Source: a virus (lineage: Duplodnaviria > Caudoviricetes). Taken from it: a stretch of 39,508 nucleotides of DNA. Positions 4,705 to 39,508 of this stretch are shown here, one piece after another. The position numbers were made by a program, and so were the translations under genes. The stretch's first letter is position 1; each line of letters begins with the position of its first letter. The stretch covers positions 1 through 39,508 of the IMG/VR virus record IMGVR_UViG_3300027373_000001. One strand, written 5' to 3'. Under the pieces are notes generated by a model. The model was not told where the DNA came from, did no database searches, and was given only the letters and a program-made list of their open reading frames with translations.

Positions 4705-5193
4705 ATGAACAAGTTTTACATCGGGATAGACAACGGGGTCAGCGGATCGGTCGGCGTGATATCCGACAGCGGCAAGGCCGTCTGGTTCAAGATGCCCGTC
4801 AAGAACGAGCTGTCCTACACCAAGACCAAGAAGTTCATCAACCGGGTAGACATCCCGGCCCTGGCCGAACTTTTCAACTGCGTCGTGCCGCTGGACGCCG
4901 ACATCGTCTGCCGTATCGAACGGCCGATGGTCAACCCCACGCGCTTCAACGCCACGCTTTCGGCTATACGGTGCCTTGAGGCCGTGCAGATATTTCTCGA
5001 GGGGCGCAAGGTGCCCTACGGATTTATCGACAGCAAGGAGTGGCAGAAGCGCATGCTTCCGGCCGGCCTGCATGGAAGCGACGAACTCAAGGCCGCGGCG
5101 GACACCGTATGCCGCAGGCTGTTCCCCTCGATCTCTATCAAGGCAGGCGGCGGCGACTCGCTGATGATAGCGCAGTACCTTAAGGAGAAATAG
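4705..5193 (+). CDS. RuvC-like Holliday junction resolvase
   Basis: YIGIDNGVSG, IERP, SKEWQK and DSLMIAQY motifs. Confidence 0.82.
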   Translation: MNKFYIGIDNGVSGSVGVISDSGKAVWFKMPVKNELSYTKTKKFINRVDIPALAELFNCVVPLDADIVCRIERPMVNPTRFNATLSAIRCLEAVQIFLEGRKVPYGFIDSKEWQKRMLPAGLHGSDELKAAADTVCRRLFPSISIKAGGGDSLMIAQYLKEK

Positions 5194-5196
5194 GAG

Positions 5197-6471
5197 ATGT
5201 ATGTGGATACTTCCAACATCATTACTACGCTCGAGTGGGCTACCGGATACGGCGGTATTGGACTTGGCCTCAAAGAAGTCTATGGTCGACGAGTGCGGTG
5301 CATTGGATATAGTGATGTTGAGGGGTTTGTCCAAGCCAATCTTATCAGTAAAATGGAACAGGGACTCCTGGATGAGGCACCTGTTTGGCCGAATCTTAAA
5401 ACCTTCCCAAGCCGAAAGTTTCACGGATTGGTGGACGTCCTCATTGCGGGATACCCTTGCCAGCCCTTCTCCTACGCCGGAAAGCGCGGCGGCGAAGAAG
5501 ATCCCCGGCACCTCTGGCCTTTCATTCAAGGGGCAGTTAAGCTTATTCGGCCACGATGCTGCTTCTTTGAGAACGTCGCAGGACATCTTACCCTCGGGTT
5601 TAAAAACGTCGTGCACGACCTGGACGAGCTGGGTTACACAGTTGCAGCAGGACTGTTTACGGCGGCAGAAGTCGGAGCGCCGCACAACCGCAAGCGGCTC
5701 TTTATCCTGGCCCACGACAACAACATCCGACTGTCACACGGAAAATTTGCGCTCGACGCAACAGAAGCCGGGCTCGATGCACAGCGTGACTTTGCCGCAG
5801 GCGGTCAAAAAGAGCTGGCCGACGGCGAAAGCGCAGAACGCGCAGAACGCATGCGACCACGGTCAAGGCGGCCCGGACCTGCAGACGGAGGTAATGAAGT
5901 GGCCGACGCCGGCCGTGATGGACGTGACGGGCGGAGACTACCCGACGGAGATAAAGGACGGCGCGATCAGAAGCCTGCACAACGCCAAGGGCCGGGAGCA
6001 GTACTACGGCGCGAGGCTGCGGGACGCGGTGAAGCTGTTCTGGCCGACGGCCTCGACCAGGGACTGGAAGGACACGCCCGGGATGTCGATGGAACGGGAC
6101 GGTCAGGAACTCGGCAGGGTGGACCAGCTGGCGAGGGCTGTATATTTCCACCAGCGTGGCCGTCTCGCCCCGGCGAGTCGCAGTACGGATGGGAGCCGCC
6201 CCGAGTCGTGGGCGACGCCGCGGTCAGGCAAGACGACCGGGGAGTCGGCGGAGACGTGGGAGAAGCGAAAGAAGAAGGGCGACGTGTCGACGATGCCGCT
6301 GGGAGCGCAGGTCAACGCCTGGAAAACGCCCCGGGCCTGCGAGGGGGACAAGCCTCCGATGGTGGACAAGCACCATCAGGGGCTGACGGCGCAGGCGCGG
6401 CCGGAGGCAGGCGCGGCCGGAGGCAGGCGCGGCCGGAGGCAAGCTCAACCCCAGATGGGTCGAGACCCTGA
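5197..6471 (+). CDS. C5-cytosine DNA methyltransferase catalytic (alpha) frame, motifs I-VIII; frameshifted at 6391-6438 before motif X
   Basis: TGYGG (I), GYPCQPFS (IV), FFENV (VI), HNRKRLFI (VIII). Motif X (LRMCGNGVVP) lies downstream in another frame. Confidence 0.88.
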   Translation: MYVDTSNIITTLEWATGYGGIGLGLKEVYGRRVRCIGYSDVEGFVQANLISKMEQGLLDEAPVWPNLKTFPSRKFHGLVDVLIAGYPCQPFSYAGKRGGEEDPRHLWPFIQGAVKLIRPRCCFFENVAGHLTLGFKNVVHDLDELGYTVAAGLFTAAEVGAPHNRKRLFILAHDNNIRLSHGKFALDATEAGLDAQRDFAAGGQKELADGESAERAERMRPRSRRPGPADGGNEVADAGRDGRDGRRLPDGDKGRRDQKPAQRQGPGAVLRREAAGRGEAVLADGLDQGLEGHARDVDGTGRSGTRQGGPAGEGCIFPPAWPSRPGESQYGWEPPRVVGDAAVRQDDRGVGGDVGEAKEEGRRVDDAAGSAGQRLENAPGLRGGQASDGGQAPSGADGAGAAGGRRGRRQARPEASSTPDGSRP

Positions 6472-6661
6472 TGGGGCTGCCGATGGGCTGGACGTGCCCG
6501 GACTGCCCGCCCTCGGTGATAAGGAACTGGCCGAGCTTTATGATTGGATGGCTCGTACTACAAACCGAACTGACGAGCTGCGGATGTGCGGAAACGGAGT
6601 CGTGCCCGCCGCCGCCGCAGTCGCTTGGCGAACTCTTTACAGAGAACTGTGTGGAGAATGA
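5201..6661 (+). CDS. Overlapping +1-frame (beta) methyltransferase polypeptide with W-x-T-(P) repeats; as assembled it is fused to the alpha C-terminus (motif X)
   Basis: 486-codon open frame with six WxT(P) units. Its expected motif IX (KLNPRWVETLMGLPMGWT) is in the third frame from 6441. Confidence 0.78.
   Translation: MWILPTSLLRSSGLPDTAVLDLASKKSMVDECGALDIVMLRGLSKPILSVKWNRDSWMRHLFGRILKPSQAESFTDWWTSSLRDTLASPSPTPESAAAKKIPGTSGLSFKGQLSLFGHDAASLRTSQDILPSGLKTSCTTWTSWVTQLQQDCLRRQKSERRTTASGSLSWPTTTTSDCHTENLRSTQQKPGSMHSVTLPQAVKKSWPTAKAQNAQNACDHGQGGPDLQTEVMKWPTPAVMDVTGGDYPTEIKDGAIRSLHNAKGREQYYGARLRDAVKLFWPTASTRDWKDTPGMSMERDGQELGRVDQLARAVYFHQRGRLAPASRSTDGSRPESWATPRSGKTTGESAETWEKRKKKGDVSTMPLGAQVNAWKTPRACEGDKPPMVDKHHQGLTAQARPEAGAAGGRRGRRQAQPQMGRDPDGAADGLDVPGLPALGDKELAELYDWMARTTNRTDELRMCGNGVVPAAAAVAWRTLYRELCGE
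6391..6438 (+). repeat. 16-bp perfect tandem repeat x3 (GCAGGCGCGGCCGGAG) in the C5 MTase
   Basis: Copies at 6391-6406, 6407-6422 and 6423-6438. Confidence 0.95.
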
Positions 6662-6969
6662 TGATGAGTAAGAATATTGACTCTGATATCCGCCGCCGCA
6701 AGATGTTTATCAAGTCGGCGCACGATGTTATGGAGCATTGGCCCGGATACGCCGCCTCCCTATCCAGCCTCTCGATCGAATGCGAGACCGACCGCTACAA
6801 CAAGGAACGCCAGGGCGCGGCGCAGGATGTATTGATATCGACGTGGAAGGCAGTACGGACGAACCAGGCCACGCCGGAGCAGTTCGAGAAGGCGGTCATA
6901 GACTGGCGGGTTTGCCCCCGCCTCGCTTTTTATTGTTTCGAGATGAGGTTAAGGAGGATGAAGAAATGA
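6658..6969 (+). CDS. hypothetical protein
   Basis: ATGA overlap with the stop at 6661; GGAG upstream. Confidence 0.6.
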   Translation: MMMSKNIDSDIRRRKMFIKSAHDVMEHWPGYAASLSSLSIECETDRYNKERQGAAQDVLISTWKAVRTNQATPEQFEKAVIDWRVCPRLAFYCFEMRLRRMKK

Positions 6970-9136: not shown

Positions 9137-9957
9137 GCATGCAGAGGCAACACGACATCAAGAACGGCTACACCCAACTGGCGCACACGTTGCTCGAGGA
9201 CATGGCGCAGATGGACCTCACGAGCATGGAGTTCCGGGTGATCATGTGGGTTTGGCGCAACTCCTACGGCGTACACCACAAGAGCACCCGGCCGGTATCC
9301 GAGCGCGAGATGGCCCGCAGCATGGGCACCAACCCGGGCAACGTGCACCGGGCCCTGGAAAGCCTCAAGAAGCGCGACCTCGTGCGCCAGAAGGTACGCT
9401 CCTACAGCTTCAATAAGTACGCTGTAGGCGTTGCCGGGCGGCAACACCTGAATGTAATTAATCCATTAATTACAATGAAGCGTTGCCCAGCGGCAACGGG
9501 GGCGTTGCCGGGCGGCAACGGGGGGGCGTTGCCCAGCGGCAACGGGGCGTTGCCGGGCGGCAACGCTTCGAATGTAATATTGAAAGATAGGGGAGTTAAA
9601 GATAGGGGGAGTGAGCGCAGCGGAAAAACCGCTGCACCCCCAGCCCCGGTCCCTTCCGGGTCTTTTTCCCGAACCGAAATAGAGGCCGTCGGCCTGCACT
9701 ACATCAGCGTGAAGAAACTGCCGATGGCGGACGATGGGGCCAGGCAGGTGTACGCCAAGATGCGAAACGTCTGGGACCCCGCCAGGAAACTTCTGACGCT
9801 GGCGTCAGGAAACGTGGAGCGCGTCAAAGAGGCCATCAGCGACCTCGACGCCTACTACGCCGGCAAGCCGTGGACTTTATCGTGGGTGGCCACAGATTAC
9901 CCCGAGTGGGACAAGGAGAGGATGGAAAATGACGAAAAGAAAGAAGTTCGGAAGTAG
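9133..9957 (+). CDS. replication initiator (lambda O-like)
   Basis: N-terminus NGYTQLAHTLLE...LTSMEFRVIMWVWRNSYG plus HTH; central linker encoded by iterons. Confidence 0.85.
   Translation: MSMQRQHDIKNGYTQLAHTLLEDMAQMDLTSMEFRVIMWVWRNSYGVHHKSTRPVSEREMARSMGTNPGNVHRALESLKKRDLVRQKVRSYSFNKYAVGVAGRQHLNVINPLITMKRCPAATGALPGGNGGALPSGNGALPGGNASNVILKDRGVKDRGSERSGKTAAPPAPVPSGSFSRTEIEAVGLHYISVKKLPMADDGARQVYAKMRNVWDPARKLLTLASGNVERVKEAISDLDAYYAGKPWTLSWVATDYPEWDKERMENDEKKEVRK
9430..9612. promoter_or_regulatory. putative replication origin: five palindromic iterons plus an AT-rich palindrome
   Basis: GTTGCC-N4-GGCAAC at 9430, 9482, 9504, 9528 and 9549; TGTAATTAAT-CC-ATTAATTACA at 9453-9474. Confidence 0.8.
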
Positions 9958-11030: not shown

Positions 11031-11239
11031 AAGAGCCAGCCAAGAAGATCATCACCAACCCGATAGAGAATGGAAACCTTCTCTGCCCCGTCTGCAGGAA
11101 AGGCGCCGTCTACCAGGGAGACGACGGAAAGATGTACACGTCGCCCATGCGGCGCTTCACCATCCCCGGCAAGGTCAACGCCCTGATGCACGAGTGCTGC
11201 ATCTCGAAGATACTCTCCGAAGCGAGGCTCCGCAAATGA
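11027..11239 (+). CDS. hypothetical protein (CPVC...HECC)
   Basis: GAGGAG RBS, ATGA coupling. Confidence 0.55.
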   Translation: MKEPAKKIITNPIENGNLLCPVCRKGAVYQGDDGKMYTSPMRRFTIPGKVNALMHECCISKILSEARLRK

Positions 11240-12405
11240 ACAACCTCATCTGGAAAACCGAACGCCGCAAAGTGGCCGACCTCGTACCCTACGAGCACAA
11301 CCCCCGGAAGATAACGGCCGACCAGGCCCGCCGCCTGCAGGACAGCCTCGAGAAGTTCAACCTCGTGGAGATACCCGCCGTCAACACGGACGGGATCATC
11401 ATAGCCGGGCACCAGCGCCTGGCCGTCATGAAGGCCATCGGCCGCGGCAACGAGATGGTGGACGTCCGGGTGCCCAACCGGAAACTCACCGAGGCCGAGC
11501 TCAAGGAGTACAACCTGCGCTCCAACAAAAACGTGGCCGAGTGGGACTTCGATATCCTGGCCGAGCACTTCCCCGAGGATATGCTCAAGGACGTAGGCTT
11601 CGACATGGCCGACATGCCGGAGGTGCAGACGGGATCCCAACCCGGACAGGATAAGGTGCCTACCCTCCGCAAGACCAGCATCAAGGTAGGCGACGCCTTT
11701 ACGCTCGGGGAGCACGTGCTCCTATGCGGCGACAGCACCAGCCTCGACACCGTCCGAAAGCTCGGACCCTGCGAGATGGCGTTCACGGACCCGCCTTGGA
11801 ACGTGGCTATCGGCCTCGACAGCAATCCGCGCCACCGCCAGCGCAAGGGGCTCATCAACGACAACCTCGGCAAGGACTTCCCGGCTTTCCTGCACAAGGT
11901 CGCCGCCGCCCTCGCCGCGGCCGTCCGCAAGGACATCTACGTGGTGATGGGCTGCGCCGAGTGGCCGAACGTACACGCCGCCCTCGCCGCGGCCGGCTTC
12001 CATTGGTCCAGCACCATCGTCTGGGTCAAGGATATCTTCGTCCTCGGCCGGAGCAACTACCACCGCCGCTATGAGCCCATCTGGTACGGCTGGCAGAAGA
12101 ACAGCTCCTACCGCGGCGACCGCAAGCAGGACGACGTCTGGGAGCACCAGCGGCCGACCAGGAGCCCGGAGCACCCGACCATGAAGCCGGTCGAGCTGGT
12201 AGAGCATGCCATCCTCAACTCGTCCGTCAAAGGCGACACCGTGCTCGACCTGTTCGGAGGTTCCGGCACCACGCTCCTAGCCTGCGAAAAGACCGGCCGC
12301 AAGTGCCGCATGATCGAGCTCGAGCCCGGATACTGCCAAGTGATAATCGACCGCTGGGAGGAGTTCACCGGCCGCAAGGCCAAGCCCCTGCGCCTTGACA
12401 AGTAG
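11236..12405 (+). CDS. ParB-like N-terminal domain fused to an N4/N6 DNA methyltransferase
   Basis: PYEHNPRK...IIAGHQRL (ParB-N); CGDS, FTDPPWN, HPTMKPVEL, VLDLFGGSGTT. Confidence 0.92.
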   Translation: MNNLIWKTERRKVADLVPYEHNPRKITADQARRLQDSLEKFNLVEIPAVNTDGIIIAGHQRLAVMKAIGRGNEMVDVRVPNRKLTEAELKEYNLRSNKNVAEWDFDILAEHFPEDMLKDVGFDMADMPEVQTGSQPGQDKVPTLRKTSIKVGDAFTLGEHVLLCGDSTSLDTVRKLGPCEMAFTDPPWNVAIGLDSNPRHRQRKGLINDNLGKDFPAFLHKVAAALAAAVRKDIYVVMGCAEWPNVHAALAAAGFHWSSTIVWVKDIFVLGRSNYHRRYEPIWYGWQKNSSYRGDRKQDDVWEHQRPTRSPEHPTMKPVELVEHAILNSSVKGDTVLDLFGGSGTTLLACEKTGRKCRMIELEPGYCQVIIDRWEEFTGRKAKPLRLDK

Positions 12406-19048: not shown

Positions 19049-20356
19049 ATGGCTAAACCCTCTCCCAAATTCCCCCGCCGCATTCGCGAATCGAAGCTGG
19101 CCGATAAGTCCTCCATCAACGTTCACATACTCGAATCCTCCCGCCTCCTCGAAGCCCTCCCTGACGGCCCCAACGGCGAAAAGATATTCAAGGTCTGCCT
19201 CATAACCGAGGGCCTGGGCAACCGCCGCAACATGAACTACTACGGCCCCGAAGCCATAGAGTCGGCGGCCATGGTCTACGAGGGCAAGTCCTGCTACATC
19301 AACCATCAGTCGCTTGACGGCGAGGTCAACCTGCCCGAGCGCGACGTGCGCGATAAGGCCGGGTACTGGAAAAACCTCTCTATATCCGAAGTAGGCGGCC
19401 GCAAGGCTTGCATCGGAGAACTGCACTGCGACCTTTCCGAGTCCGGCCGCTTCCTGGCCGAGAAAGTGCAGAGCGCCCTCCACTACAAGAAAGAGTTCCC
19501 GGACAACGATATCGAGTACTGCGGATTCTCCGTCAACGGTGACGGCGACGCCGAGCGCAAAGAAGTGGACGTGGACGGCGAGAAAGTGTCAGTCAACTAC
19601 GTGACGGCATTCACCGAAGAGAGCGAGTCGTGCGATTTAGTAACTACCCCCGCAAGGGGCGGAAAGGCTTTATCGGCCATCCGTGAAAGCAAAACACAGG
19701 ACAAGGAGAACGTGATGAAGAACGTAAAGAAGCTGCTGGAAGCGGCGCTCACGAAGCTCACGGAATCGGCCAAGAAGCTGACCGCCGAGCAGAAGAAGCC
19801 GCTGCAGGAGAGCATGAAGGTCCTCACCGAAGCCGTGAAAGCGGTGGAGGCCGAGGGCGAAGGCGAAGAGATGAGCGAAGGCGAAGAGATGAGCGAAGCC
19901 GACCAGATGGACGCCATCCTTGCCCGCCGCGAGGGCGAGTCCGAAGCCGATCACTCGGCCAGGATGAAGGTCCTCGGCGACAAGATCGCCGGGATGATAG
20001 GCGCCGAGGAAGCCAACCCGGAACCCGAGGGCGAAGAGAAGGAAGAAGAGAAGCCCCTGAAGCCCATGGAGTCCGAGCGCAAGCTGACCGCCGACGACCT
20101 CGAGCGCAACCTGCTGGCGATAAAGTCCCTCGTCAAAGAGTCCGAACTCCCCGAGGACTGCTACACGGAGAAGCGCTACTCCGAACTGGCCCGCATGCCT
20201 TTCGCCAGGGCCAAGGCCGCCATCGAGAGCGACGCCAAGCTGGCCGCTTCAATCCTGCGCGAGGCCGACATCCCCGTCGCCTCTCTCCGCTCCGGCACCC
20301 GCGAAACGGGCAACCGCAAGAGCGCTTTCGTGGAGTCTTTCAAGGAGGCTAACTAA
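19049..20356 (+). CDS. prohead protease-scaffold fusion
   Basis: N-terminal NRRNMNYY, YINH, GFSVNG, DLVTTPARGGK; acidic helical C-terminus. Confidence 0.85.
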   Translation: MAKPSPKFPRRIRESKLADKSSINVHILESSRLLEALPDGPNGEKIFKVCLITEGLGNRRNMNYYGPEAIESAAMVYEGKSCYINHQSLDGEVNLPERDVRDKAGYWKNLSISEVGGRKACIGELHCDLSESGRFLAEKVQSALHYKKEFPDNDIEYCGFSVNGDGDAERKEVDVDGEKVSVNYVTAFTEESESCDLVTTPARGGKALSAIRESKTQDKENVMKNVKKLLEAALTKLTESAKKLTAEQKKPLQESMKVLTEAVKAVEAEGEGEEMSEGEEMSEADQMDAILARREGESEADHSARMKVLGDKIAGMIGAEEANPEPEGEEKEEEKPLKPMESERKLTADDLERNLLAIKSLVKESELPEDCYTEKRYSELARMPFARAKAAIESDAKLAASILREADIPVASLRSGTRETGNRKSAFVESFKEAN

Positions 20357-36480: not shown

Positions 36481-36952
36481 ATGAAACTGAATAAAGGACT
36501 GTTCACAAGCGACCGAGGAGATTGGGCCACCCCGCCCAATTTCTTCGATAAACTGGATGCGGAGTTTCACTTCACGCTCGACGTATGTGCTTCGCCGAAC
36601 AATAACAAATGCAAGCGGTTTCTGACAAAGGAGCAGAACGGACTGATACAGGACTGGGCTAGAATAGCGGCACAGGGCGGCACAGGGCGGCACAGGGCGG
36701 CACAGGGCGGAACGTGGTGCCTGCTTTATGAATCCACCCTATGGGTCCGAAATCCCCGCTTGGGTAAAGAAGGCAAGCGAAAGCGGATGCCTGGTAGTCG
36801 GGCTTCTTCCGGCCAGAACAGACACACGCTGGTTTCACAACTATGTCTACGGCAAAGCGGAGATTCGATTCGTAAAAGGACGCATTCGTTTTGTCGGGGC
36901 TAAATCAGGGGCCCCTTTCCCTTCTATGATTGCTATTTGGAGGAACATATGA
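36481..36952 (+). pseudogene. phage Dam-type N6-adenine methyltransferase, frameshifted at a 10-bp tandem repeat (candidate phase-variable, OFF as assembled)
   Basis: N-half DWATPP.FF..LD.EF.FTLDVCAS...NGL.QDW in frame 36481. C-half CFMNPPYG...LLPARTDTRWFH...GRIRF...APFPSM in the +1 frame to 36952. Confidence 0.88.
36671..36710 (+). repeat. 10-bp perfect tandem repeat x4 (CACAGGGCGG)
   Basis: Read directly from the sequence. Confidence 0.95.
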
Positions 36953-38208: not shown

Positions 38209-38651
38209 CCCGCCGATGTGTCTACTGCCGCCCCCGCTGGACGTGGGGGGTACGCCGCTGGTCCCTGCTCGGCCGCATCTATGCCTTCCTGTGGCCGCAC
38301 CACGTCATAGGTATAGACTACGGCCCGCCCTACACCGACGGGATGTGCGACGAGGCTGTGCGCCGGATGGAGGATCACGACCAGGGTCGGGCACCCCGGG
38401 AGATAGAGCCAGTCGACATCCTGATAGCGATCTTCGTGGCCGCCGTGCTGGCGCAGTATGCCTACATCTGCAGGCAGGAAGAACGCCTGCAGCACCTCCG
38501 GCAGATAGCGGTCAGCATTCCCTTGGATGCTCGTGCGCAGAATGGAAGGAAGCCTTGCGTAGACTGCGAGGTGTGCTTCCGAAAAAACGACACAGAAAAC
38601 CCGGACTGCGCTCATTGCCTCGGGTGCTGGATGTGGGGTGTCAATCCATGA
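38181..38651 (+). CDS. hypothetical protein with TM helix and Cys motifs
   Basis: GGAGG RBS; CVYC, TM segment, CVDC/CAHC. Confidence 0.5.
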   Translation: MQSHGHKPVTRRCVYCRPRWTWGVRRWSLLGRIYAFLWPHHVIGIDYGPPYTDGMCDEAVRRMEDHDQGRAPREIEPVDILIAIFVAAVLAQYAYICRQEERLQHLRQIAVSIPLDARAQNGRKPCVDCEVCFRKNDTENPDCAHCLGCWMWGVNP

Positions 38652-38926
38652 ACTGGAACTTCAAGCGCCGCCCGGCCGCAGACAAAGACAAGCGCCTCTA
38701 CCGGATACTGAATATCCTCGCACGGCTGCAGGGTGTCCGGGTGTCCGGGTGTCCGGGTGTCCGGGTGTCCGGGTGTCCGGGTGTCCGGGTGTCCGCCCTG
38801 GCCGACGATTTCAACGTCTCACAGCGGCAGGTACAGCGTGATCTGAATGCCTTGAGCACGGCTGGCTTCCCGCTTGAATGCGTGTGGGAAGGACGGGAGA
38901 TGGTTTGGAAGATGATAAAGACTTGA
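38648..38926 (+). CDS. HTH_11-type winged-helix transcription regulator containing an 8-bp repeat tract
   Basis: RLYRILNILARLQ...VSALADDFNVSQRQVQRDLNALSTAGFPL. Confidence 0.8.
   Translation: MNWNFKRRPAADKDKRLYRILNILARLQGVRVSGCPGVRVSGCPGVRVSALADDFNVSQRQVQRDLNALSTAGFPLECVWEGREMVWKMIKT
38731..38794 (+). repeat. 8-bp perfect tandem repeat x8 (GGGTGTCC)
   Basis: Read directly; 64 bp. Confidence 0.95.
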
Positions 38927-39246: not shown

Positions 39247-39508
39247 ATGAAACTTACGTTAAAGGTGATGTTTGAGCAGTGGAAGGCGCTGAGCTTTAAG
39301 GCAACGCTCTCGGGCGAAGATGCCCTGAAGGCCGTGGAAGCCGACGGCTACGCGCTGAGATACGTGAAGGAGCAGACCCCGGAGATATGCCTGAAGGCCG
39401 TGGAAGCCAACGGCGACGCGCTGAGATACGTGAAGGAGCAGACCCCGGAGATATGCCTGAAGGCCGTGGAAGCCGACGGCGACGCGCTGAGATACGTGAA
39501 GGAGCAGA
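39247..39508 (+). CDS. 5' part of DUF4116-like tandem-repeat protein (continues at nt 1-197)
   Basis: AAGGAGG RBS; MKLTLKVMFEQW...AVEADGYALRYVKEQTPEICLKAVEANGDAL... Confidence 0.85.
   Translation, partial: MKLTLKVMFEQWKALSFKATLSGEDALKAVEADGYALRYVKEQTPEICLKAVEANGDALRYVKEQTPEICLKAVEADGDALRYVKEQ

What the first reader, a model, noticed from the sequence alone, without database searches (positions are those of the whole stretch)
6391..6671. One 16-bp repeat switches two overlapping reading frames at once
Seen: with 3 copies, alpha stops at 6471 without motif X, beta is fused to alpha's motif X tail, and motif IX (KLNPRWVETLMGLPMGWT, from 6441) is stranded in the third frame. Removing one copy gives alpha 482 aa ending RTDELRMCGNGVVP...CGE and beta 484 aa containing GGKLNPRWVETLMGLPMGWT. 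So 2 or 5 copies are ON, and other counts swap C-termini between the subunits. Inference: a single slippage event controls both subunits, and the swapped products might be inactive, dominant-negative or altered in activity. The unit itself contains GCGC, CGCG, GGCC and CCGG, common m5C targets; any feedback role is speculation.
Basis: partly seen in the sequence, partly recalled or inferred. Interest (0 to 1): 0.8.

Follow-up and report, generated by a model that had tools for sequence, protein, structure and literature searches.

The report
Repeat switch in two-frame phage methylase
In this phage a third copy of a 16-base repeat frameshifts both overlapping genes of a two-part DNA cytosine methylase, close relatives carry two copies and intact genes, and a second methylase gene is broken by an extra repeat copy in the same way, so the repeats likely act as on/off switches for the phage's DNA methylation.

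Summary
A perfect 16-bp array (3.19 copies, 6391-6441) lies in the dual-coding part of an M.EcoHK31I-like C5 methyltransferase of a complete 39.4-kb phage. Two or five copies keep both frames intact. Three copies strand motif IX; one or four strand motif X. The third copy is in reads (a loop in an independent k=31 graph). A 94-96% identical relative has two copies (two assemblers); a more distant one has at least three. The 'swap' most likely just kills the enzyme: no complete homologue lacks IX, and in a family model IX packs on X. Best reading (0.5): a repeat-driven ON/OFF contingency locus, probably hedging between classical and methylation-dependent restriction. Main rival (0.38): neutral slippage in a dispensable gene. 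The repeat is lineage-specific (0 of 126 homologues have such an array). An identical-protein 'ON' contig may be a collapsed re-assembly. No raw reads were available. Self-target feedback is unsupported. New variant of known kinds; interest 0.45.

The parts
5182..5205 (+). Shared start region: two Shine-Dalgarno-like stretches, alpha ATG 5197 (GTG 5203 in frame), beta ATG 5201
   Evidence: Sequence; beta starts MWI in all 52 aligned betas (the locus rows were picked by that start, so this is partly by construction)
5197..6471 (+). C5 methyltransferase alpha frame as assembled: motifs I-VIII, linker, premature stop after the array (424 aa; 482 aa ending at 6661 with two copies)
   Evidence: PF00145 E 4.3e-27, residues 11-179; M.HhaI E 2e-12; copy series
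5201..6661 (+). Beta frame (+1) as assembled: conserved N-terminal part, six WPT/WAT/WKT modules (5708-6390), then joined to alpha's motif X tail (486 aa; 484 aa ending at 6671 with two copies)
   Evidence: two-copy form hits phrog_1008 DNA methyltransferase E 7.3e-10; family alignment
6391..6441 (+). Perfect 16-bp tandem array, 3.19 copies, in the dual-coding linker just before motif IX
   Evidence: loop in the X1 graph; 2 copies in X2, X4, P0002, P0149; at least 3.25 in L224
6441..6671 (+). Stranded beta tail with putative motif IX (KLNPRWVETLMGLPMGW), third frame, no start codon
   Evidence: 419 relatives in viral contigs; packs on motif X in the L098 model
6440..6661 (+). Alpha tail with putative motif X (GNGVVP at 6590-6607), now read by beta; its stop overlaps the start codons of the next gene
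   Evidence: the tail of L098 alpha superposes to the C-terminus of M.HhaI
36481..36952 (+). Dam-like N6-adenine methyltransferase (PF05869), frameshifted at a second array
   Evidence: Both halves hit PF05869 (E 9.2e-16, profile 7-58; E 5.4e-10, profile 65-145); in frame at 0, 3, 6 copies
36667..36710 (+). Perfect 10-bp array, 4.4 copies (out of frame)
   Evidence: 3 copies in P0045 and P0046, none in P0047
38731..38795 (+). Perfect 8-bp array, 8.1 copies, in frame inside an HTH_11 gene (38648-38926)
   Evidence: same unit and count in L225

Best explanation
A third copy of a 16-bp repeat puts both overlapping genes of this phage's two-chain cytosine methyltransferase out of frame, which likely turns the enzyme off, and slippage between two and three copies likely works as a reversible ON/OFF switch (a phage contingency locus). 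Shown: the frames, the three outcomes by copy number, two copies in close relatives, three or more in two lineages, a second methylase gene broken by one extra repeat copy. Inferred: that two copies give an active heterodimer (family layout, model of a family member); that three copies are inactive (motif IX cannot be translated); that the switch is non-polar, since in every state one frame is still read to 6661 or 6671; that switching is frequent and reversible; and that it is kept because methylation protects against type I-III restriction but exposes the phage to methylation-dependent (type IV) enzymes, as shown for glucosylation in T2 agt.
For: Copy number varies with the unit unchanged: window, X1, L223, P0148 three; X2, X4 (one study) and P0002 (JGI, same substitutions as X2) two; P0149 two; L224 at least 3.25, 92% identical over the 220 nt behind the array with both tail frames open. 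The OFF allele has no other lesion: beta is 292/292 identical to a two-copy protein (P0150), and alpha keeps the invariant columns of alignment A2 (compared by eye). The Dam-like gene is also one copy out of frame, its array sits where homologues have a short linker, and a relative with 149/153 identity has three in-frame copies (P0046). Three perfect arrays against 0.23 expected (P 0.002; 0.02 if the finding's own array is set aside). Two of the three arrays are in methylase genes (P 0.018 against the genome, 0.09 against the non-structural part; post hoc). X1 depths fit about 54% three-copy molecules if depth equals the flanks. Precedent: PMC12633550 (passages).
Against: Lineage-specific: none of 126 distinct homologous loci has three or more perfect copies of a non-triplet unit between motifs IV and X; relatives X18/X19 (90-95%) replaced the segment by 110 other nt, in frame; L225 has neither gene (record 75% complete). 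The ON allele has only two copies of a long unit, far from the homopolymer tracts of known phage contingency loci. The X1 depths fit pure three-copy DNA with a local dip equally well (mean 3.08 copies by ratio; P 0.036 against 0.067). The ENA contig with both ON alleles (P0150, P0045) cannot be counted: 2 and 3 are the counts that a k=27-35 graph gives when it skips the loops, and its HTH protein is missing from the collection although both neighbours are there; P0149 and P0046 are ENA too. Conservation of the unit is not significant (0 changes in the array against 17 in 220 nt). The third array stays at 8 copies in relatives at 75-80% protein identity, so an array here need not switch. 3 of 126 homologues are broken without any repeat.
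Confidence: 0.5

Rival explanations
1. Neutral or one-way decay: an old 16-bp duplication in a tolerant linker is a slippage hotspot, the methylases are dispensable, and this genome carries two fresh pseudogenes; nothing keeps the repeat as a switch.
For: Both genes are accessory (absent from L225); the repeat is absent from the wider family and from X18/X19; homologues break in other ways (L041 stop, L056 frameshift, L161 stops); this phage is rich in perfect arrays, also in a non-methylase gene; X1 fits a fixed three-copy allele.
Against: Three or more copies in two lineages (window and L224); both methylases broken by exactly one extra unit and by nothing else; the 30-nt Dam insertion is retained in frame in P0046.
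Confidence: 0.38
2. Subunit swap with function: at three copies beta supplies motif X in trans and the enzyme works, with changed specificity or level, or the swapped chains poison intact enzyme in mixed infections.
For: Natural loci carry X on beta (5 of 127; L092 alpha 183 aa, beta 293 aa), like M.AquI (PMC3404938, passages). In the family model beta's N-terminal part also contacts alpha, so a swapped beta could still bind.
Against: Those natural betas keep IX before X; the three-copy beta has no IX, and IX has no start codon of its own. Of the 80 loci found with alpha's N-terminus (not selected for IX) 73 show an IX-like motif and the other 7 end within 1 kb of motif IV. The tightest model contacts join IX to X.
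Confidence: 0.06
3. Artefact: the phage has two copies and the third came from assembly or library amplification.
For: An ENA contig with identical proteins has the two-copy and three-copy ON alleles; local depth at the array is low.
Against: The loop k-mers exist at depth 7.41 in an independent graph; L223 and P0148 agree; the 99-nt terminal overlap suggests a k long enough to span 51 nt (inference); L224 has the third copy in another lineage.
Confidence: 0.03
4. Feedback: the array is the enzyme's own target and its methylation state tunes slippage or expression.
For: The unit holds GCGC, CGCG, GGCC, CCGG and a YGGCCR site, the target of M.EcoHK31I.
Against: 11% of shuffles hold YGGCCR and 2.3% all four 4-mers (chosen post hoc); the target is unknown; relatives lose the array; no unusual hairpin (z +1.5).
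Confidence: 0.03

Closest known systems
M.EcoHK31I (YGGCCR), two-polypeptide C5 methyltransferase (PMC2836561, PMC3404938; passages read)
   Same: Alpha with motifs I-VIII and X; beta in another frame of the same DNA with motif IX; both needed for activity.
   Different: Here beta starts beside alpha's start, is as long as alpha and carries six WPT-type modules (possibly the recognition part; in M.EcoHK31I the predicted TRD is placed on alpha); no restriction gene beside it; the passages read mention no repeat switch.
Phage contingency loci, T2 agt and T4 rIIA (PMC12633550, preprint; passages read)
   Same: Repeat slippage frameshifts a DNA-modifying gene of a phage; the two states face opposite restriction systems.
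   Different: Those are homopolymer runs with measured reversion; here units of 16 and 10 bp at 2-4 copies, methylases, a dual-coding region, no rate measured.
Phase-variable bacterial methyltransferases, phasevarions (PMC12707154 passages; PMC4889913 and PMC7383803 search listing only)
   Same: ON/OFF of a methyltransferase by repeat number.
   Different: Host-encoded, short simple repeats, single frame; here phage-encoded, long units, two frames hit at once.
M.AquI (alpha I-VIII, beta with IX-X; PMC3404938 passages)
   Same: Motif X on the second chain, as in the three-copy product and in 5 homologous loci.
   Different: M.AquI beta keeps IX; the three-copy product lacks it.

Membership tests
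C5 DNA methyltransferase (PF00145) | Catalytic motifs IV (PCQ), VI (ENV), VIII and SAM-binding motif I | tested here: met
   PF00145 E 4.3e-27; M.HhaI E 2e-12; invariant columns of A2 present
C5 DNA methyltransferase (PF00145) | Motifs IX and X present in translated products | tested here: not met
   With three copies IX is in a frame without a start; met with two copies
C5 DNA methyltransferase (PF00145) | m5C formation | not testable with these tools
   Needs expression and methylome data
M.EcoHK31I-type two-frame heterodimer | Alpha I-VIII plus X; IX on a beta chain in another frame of the same DNA | tested here: met
   Two-copy allele; 118 of 127 distinct scored loci; alpha of L098 superposes on M.HhaI 11-327, Z 21.3, rmsd 3.4, 197 aligned
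M.EcoHK31I-type two-frame heterodimer | Identity of motif IX by sequence profile | tested here: inconclusive
   No Pfam or PDB hit; assigned from recalled consensus and from packing on X in the model
M.EcoHK31I-type two-frame heterodimer | Alpha and beta bind | tested here: inconclusive
   Model of family member L098, not of this copy: score 0.88, best control 0.08; mark reached by 116 of 157 solved and 2 of 215 mismatched pairs; contacts agree at least 68%, partner pLDDT at least 72; halves of a split gene can pass by likeness to solved monomers
M.EcoHK31I-type two-frame heterodimer | Direct sequence kinship with M.EcoHK31I and target YGGCCR | not tested
   M.EcoHK31I was not fetched; the target cannot be read from sequence
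Contingency locus | Tandem repeat of non-triplet unit inside a coding frame | tested here: met
Contingency locus | Copy number differs between near-identical genomes | tested here: inconclusive
   Met between lineages at 92-96% identity; the identical-protein case (P0150, P0045) may be assembly collapse
Contingency locus | Raised, reversible mutation rate within a population | not testable with these tools
   Only contigs were served, no raw reads
Contingency locus | Repeat kept across the family | tested here: not met
   0 of 126 homologous C5 loci with at least 3 non-triplet copies; no perfect repeat in 60 of 61 Dam loci examined

The most novel reading that the evidence does not exclude
This phage runs a combinatorial methylation switchboard: two long-unit repeat arrays flip its cytosine and its adenine methylase on and off independently, giving four methylation states in one population to pass hosts with classical or methylation-dependent restriction; the dual-frame gene lets one slip silence both subunits without polarity on the downstream genes.
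Probability: 0.3. Interest if true: 0.7.

Novelty: new variant of a known kind. Interest (0 to 1): 0.45.

Why it matters
Phage contingency loci were reported only recently, for homopolymer runs in coliphages (PMC12633550, passages). A case with 10-16-bp units in two methylase genes of one phage would extend the idea to phage-encoded methylation and make the trade-off between type I-III and type IV restriction testable with four defined alleles. It also warns annotators: gene callers miss or mis-join these two-frame genes, and low-k assembly can collapse such arrays to exactly the in-frame count. If the decay reading is right, it is an ordinary pair of fresh pseudogenes in a common but under-annotated gene family.

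Tried and rejected
No relatives are drawn for a virus record; L223 and L224 are not held as whole records, so the Dam and HTH arrays of L223 were not seen. Cultured phages gave 3 weak hits under 40% identity. X3 pieces over the array are short and unlike, and X19's 51-nt record is another repeat: not counted. P0155 and P0156 match only the HTH repeat peptide: dropped. Sequence profiles could not confirm motifs IX and X. The model of a beta alone was poor (pTM 0.27) and was not searched. The Atlas search only returned unnamed or methyltransferase-named viral clusters without Pfam. No hairpin signal in the array. The length of the ENA contig (39,224) could not be assigned to particular arrays. 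No integrase or repressor was found among the ORFs scanned (not all ORFs were scanned), so lifestyle and host stay open. Literature searches for this combination gave 0 papers, one unrelated paper or only general ones; subscription journals are mostly not covered, and the supplementary SSR tables of PMC12633550 were not read and may list methylase genes.

Full report
Setting. The window is a complete virus record with direct terminal repeats (99-nt overlap), a tailed phage by its terminase, portal, capsid and tail tube hits. The likely source run is listed as a groundwater metagenome (X1). It encodes three methyltransferases: the C5 enzyme at 5197-6671, a ParB-fused N6/N4 enzyme at 11194-12405 that is intact and a Dam-like enzyme at 36481-36952.

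The array is 51 nt, 3.19 perfect copies of 16 nt. Alpha and beta start four bases apart and run in frames 0 and +1. Two, five or eight copies give alpha its GNGVVP tail and beta its LNPRWVETLMG tail. Three copies stop alpha at 6471, give beta the alpha tail and leave the beta tail in a frame with no start codon. One or four copies give alpha the beta tail and strand the alpha tail. In every state one frame is still read to 6661 or 6671, where the next gene begins, so the OFF states should not be polar (inference).

What the gene is. Alpha hits PF00145 (E 4.3e-27) and M.HhaI (E 2e-12). I fetched 160 related viral loci (the best 80 of 419 and of 189). With the window, 17 could not be scored and 17 were exact duplicates; of 127 distinct scored loci 118 have alpha I-VIII+X and beta with IX, both frames open, 5 have IX and X both on beta, and 4 are broken, the window among them. 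This is the layout of M.EcoHK31I (PMC2836561 and PMC3404938, passages); the five others resemble M.AquI. Sequence profiles did not confirm the names IX and X. Models of a short family member, L098, support them: alpha (pLDDT 78.7; linker 186-240 disordered, tail confident) superposes on M.HhaI 11-327 (Z 21.3, rmsd 3.4, 197 residues), and the alpha-beta model scores 0.88 against a best control of 0.08 (mark reached by 116 of 157 solved and 2 of 215 mismatched pairs; contacts agree at least 68%, partner pLDDT at least 72), with the tightest contacts between beta 214-228 and alpha 236-246, that is IX on X, and between beta 2-5 and alpha 59-70. This is a family member, not this copy, and split genes can pass by likeness to solved monomers.

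Is the third copy real? In Logan's k=31 graph of X1 the flanks (depth 14.1 and 13.4) break at the array, leaving a 35-nt shared piece (14.3) and a 41-nt loop (7.41) that only molecules with three or more copies produce. The ratio gives a mean of 3.08 copies at half depth (P 0.036 for such a dip); taking flank depth instead gives about 54% three-copy molecules (P 0.067 for the shared piece). The two readings cannot be told apart. L223 is identical over 16,451 nt and probably not independent. P0148, on a 2,387-bp JGI contig, is the same three-copy beta with one substitution.

Does the number vary? X2 (one contig across, 95-99% over the laid gene region, 33 differences in 555 nt around the array) and X4 (same study, depth 3) lack one unit and have no other change in the array. 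P0002, on 39,422-bp JGI contigs, shares X2's substitutions and has two copies, so two assemblers agree for that lineage. L224, 92% identical over the 220 nt behind the array, begins inside it with at least 3.25 copies and both tails open; P0149, close to L224 in its tail, has two. X18 and X19 (90-95%) replace 228 nt by 110 nt, which keeps the intact frame and removes the array. I do not count it as proof: two copies is also what a k=21-35 graph gives when it skips the loop, and its HTH protein is not in the collection although both neighbours are.

A second methylase has the same lesion. The Dam-like gene holds 4.4 perfect copies of 10 nt and is in frame at 0, 3 and 6. Homologue linkers fit zero copies, and none of the 60 of 61 loci examined has a perfect repeat. 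P0047 (78%) has none, P0046 (149/153) and P0045 (identical, same-length ENA contig) have three, and two short JGI contigs have four. A third array, 8 nt x 8.1, lies in frame in an HTH gene; it is the same in L225 (72-77% DNA identity in most shared blocks) and of the same length in five ENA proteins, so it shows no switching. Such arrays are rare in the other loci (6 in 1,028,552 nt; 0.23 expected here). Two of three falling in methylase genes has P 0.018 to 0.09 by denominator, post hoc.

Against a conserved switch. None of 126 homologous loci has three or more perfect copies of a non-triplet unit between IV and X; the only repeats are 9 nt x 2.67, 6 nt x 2.67 and 13 nt x 2.0, all with open frames. 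Three are broken without repeats. L225 lacks the C5 gene at the syntenic place and has no Dam match (75% complete). The genes are accessory and the array is young.

How it most likely works. With two copies the phage likely makes a heterodimeric C5 methylase whose beta modules may set several targets (inference from their tandem layout and their exchange between relatives; the likeness to multispecific Bacillus phage enzymes is recalled). Slippage adds or removes 16 nt and breaks both chains at once. The swapped products lack IX or X. Of 80 loci found with alpha's N-terminus, 73 show an IX-like motif and 7 end within 1 kb of motif IV, and natural betas with X keep IX, so the products are likely inactive. 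The genome lacks ACCGGT, ATCGAT and CGTACG and has few TGCGCA sites, which fits hosts rich in type II systems, where methylation helps; type IV enzymes would favour the OFF state, as for T2 agt (PMC12633550, passages). I give this contingency reading 0.5, neutral decay 0.38, a functional swap 0.06, artefact 0.03 and self-target feedback 0.03 (2.3% and 11% of shuffles match; no depletion of GCGC, GGCC or CCGG).

Novelty. The parts are known: the two-frame enzyme, phase-variable methylases (PMC12707154 passages) and phage contingency loci. Searches for the combination found nothing specific, within the limits of the library; the supplements of PMC12633550 were not read. Earlier notes of this scan describe several two-frame phage methylases frameshifted at G-runs or short repeats (unchecked, not support), so the class recurs. 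Particular here are the long unit and the matching lesion in a second methylase. Verdict: new variant of a known kind, interest 0.45.

Noticed in passing
window 36481-36952: Dam-like N6-adenine methyltransferase frameshifted by a perfect 10-bp array (4.4 copies; in frame at 0, 3, 6); an ATG at 36728 could start the NPPY half alone.
   Followed up: yes
window 38648-38926; L225 5209-5273: HTH_11 gene with a perfect 8-bp x 8.1 array inside the domain, identical in unit and count in a relative at about 75% identity; another relative's protein shows the same change in both 24-nt periods. May be a protein-binding array or a homogenised repeat; unexplained.
   Followed up: partly
window 39247-39508 and 1-163: DUF4116 protein with 66-bp repeats across the contig ends; L223 starts with 189 periodic bases against 163 here, so the array is probably longer or variable.
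   Followed up: partly
window 5708-6390: Six WPT/WAT/WKT modules in beta that differ and are exchanged between close relatives (P0149, P0004, X18); candidates for tandem recognition domains.
   Followed up: partly
window 5841-5849: X2 and P0002 carry a compensated -1/+1 shift that rewrites a few residues in both frames.
   Followed up: no
L092 2196-3084; L110, L114, L118, L120: Natural variant with alpha ending after motif VIII and beta carrying IX and X (M.AquI-like) while still overlapping alpha.
   Followed up: partly
whole window: Strong avoidance of ACCGGT, ATCGAT, CGTACG (0 sites), TGCGCA (0.14 of expected), CTAG (0.15), GATC (0.48), CGCG (0.66).
   Followed up: no
L005, between motifs IV and X: 13-bp x 2.0 perfect repeat in an intact two-frame gene, the same poised state as the two-copy allele here.
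   Followed up: no
L165, L194, L204: Three Dam homologues show no NPPY in frame after the DW linker, possibly frameshifted at the same spot without a long perfect repeat.
   Followed up: no
L225 10030-12535: At the place of the C5 gene this relative has a different nuclease-like gene, and further on a 524-aa protein that looks ParB-like by eye.
   Followed up: no
window 19857-19898 and 9480-9565: In-frame-length repeats (18 bp x 2.3 perfect; 24 bp x 3.9 imperfect, in the replication protein O gene, possibly origin iterons).
   Followed up: no
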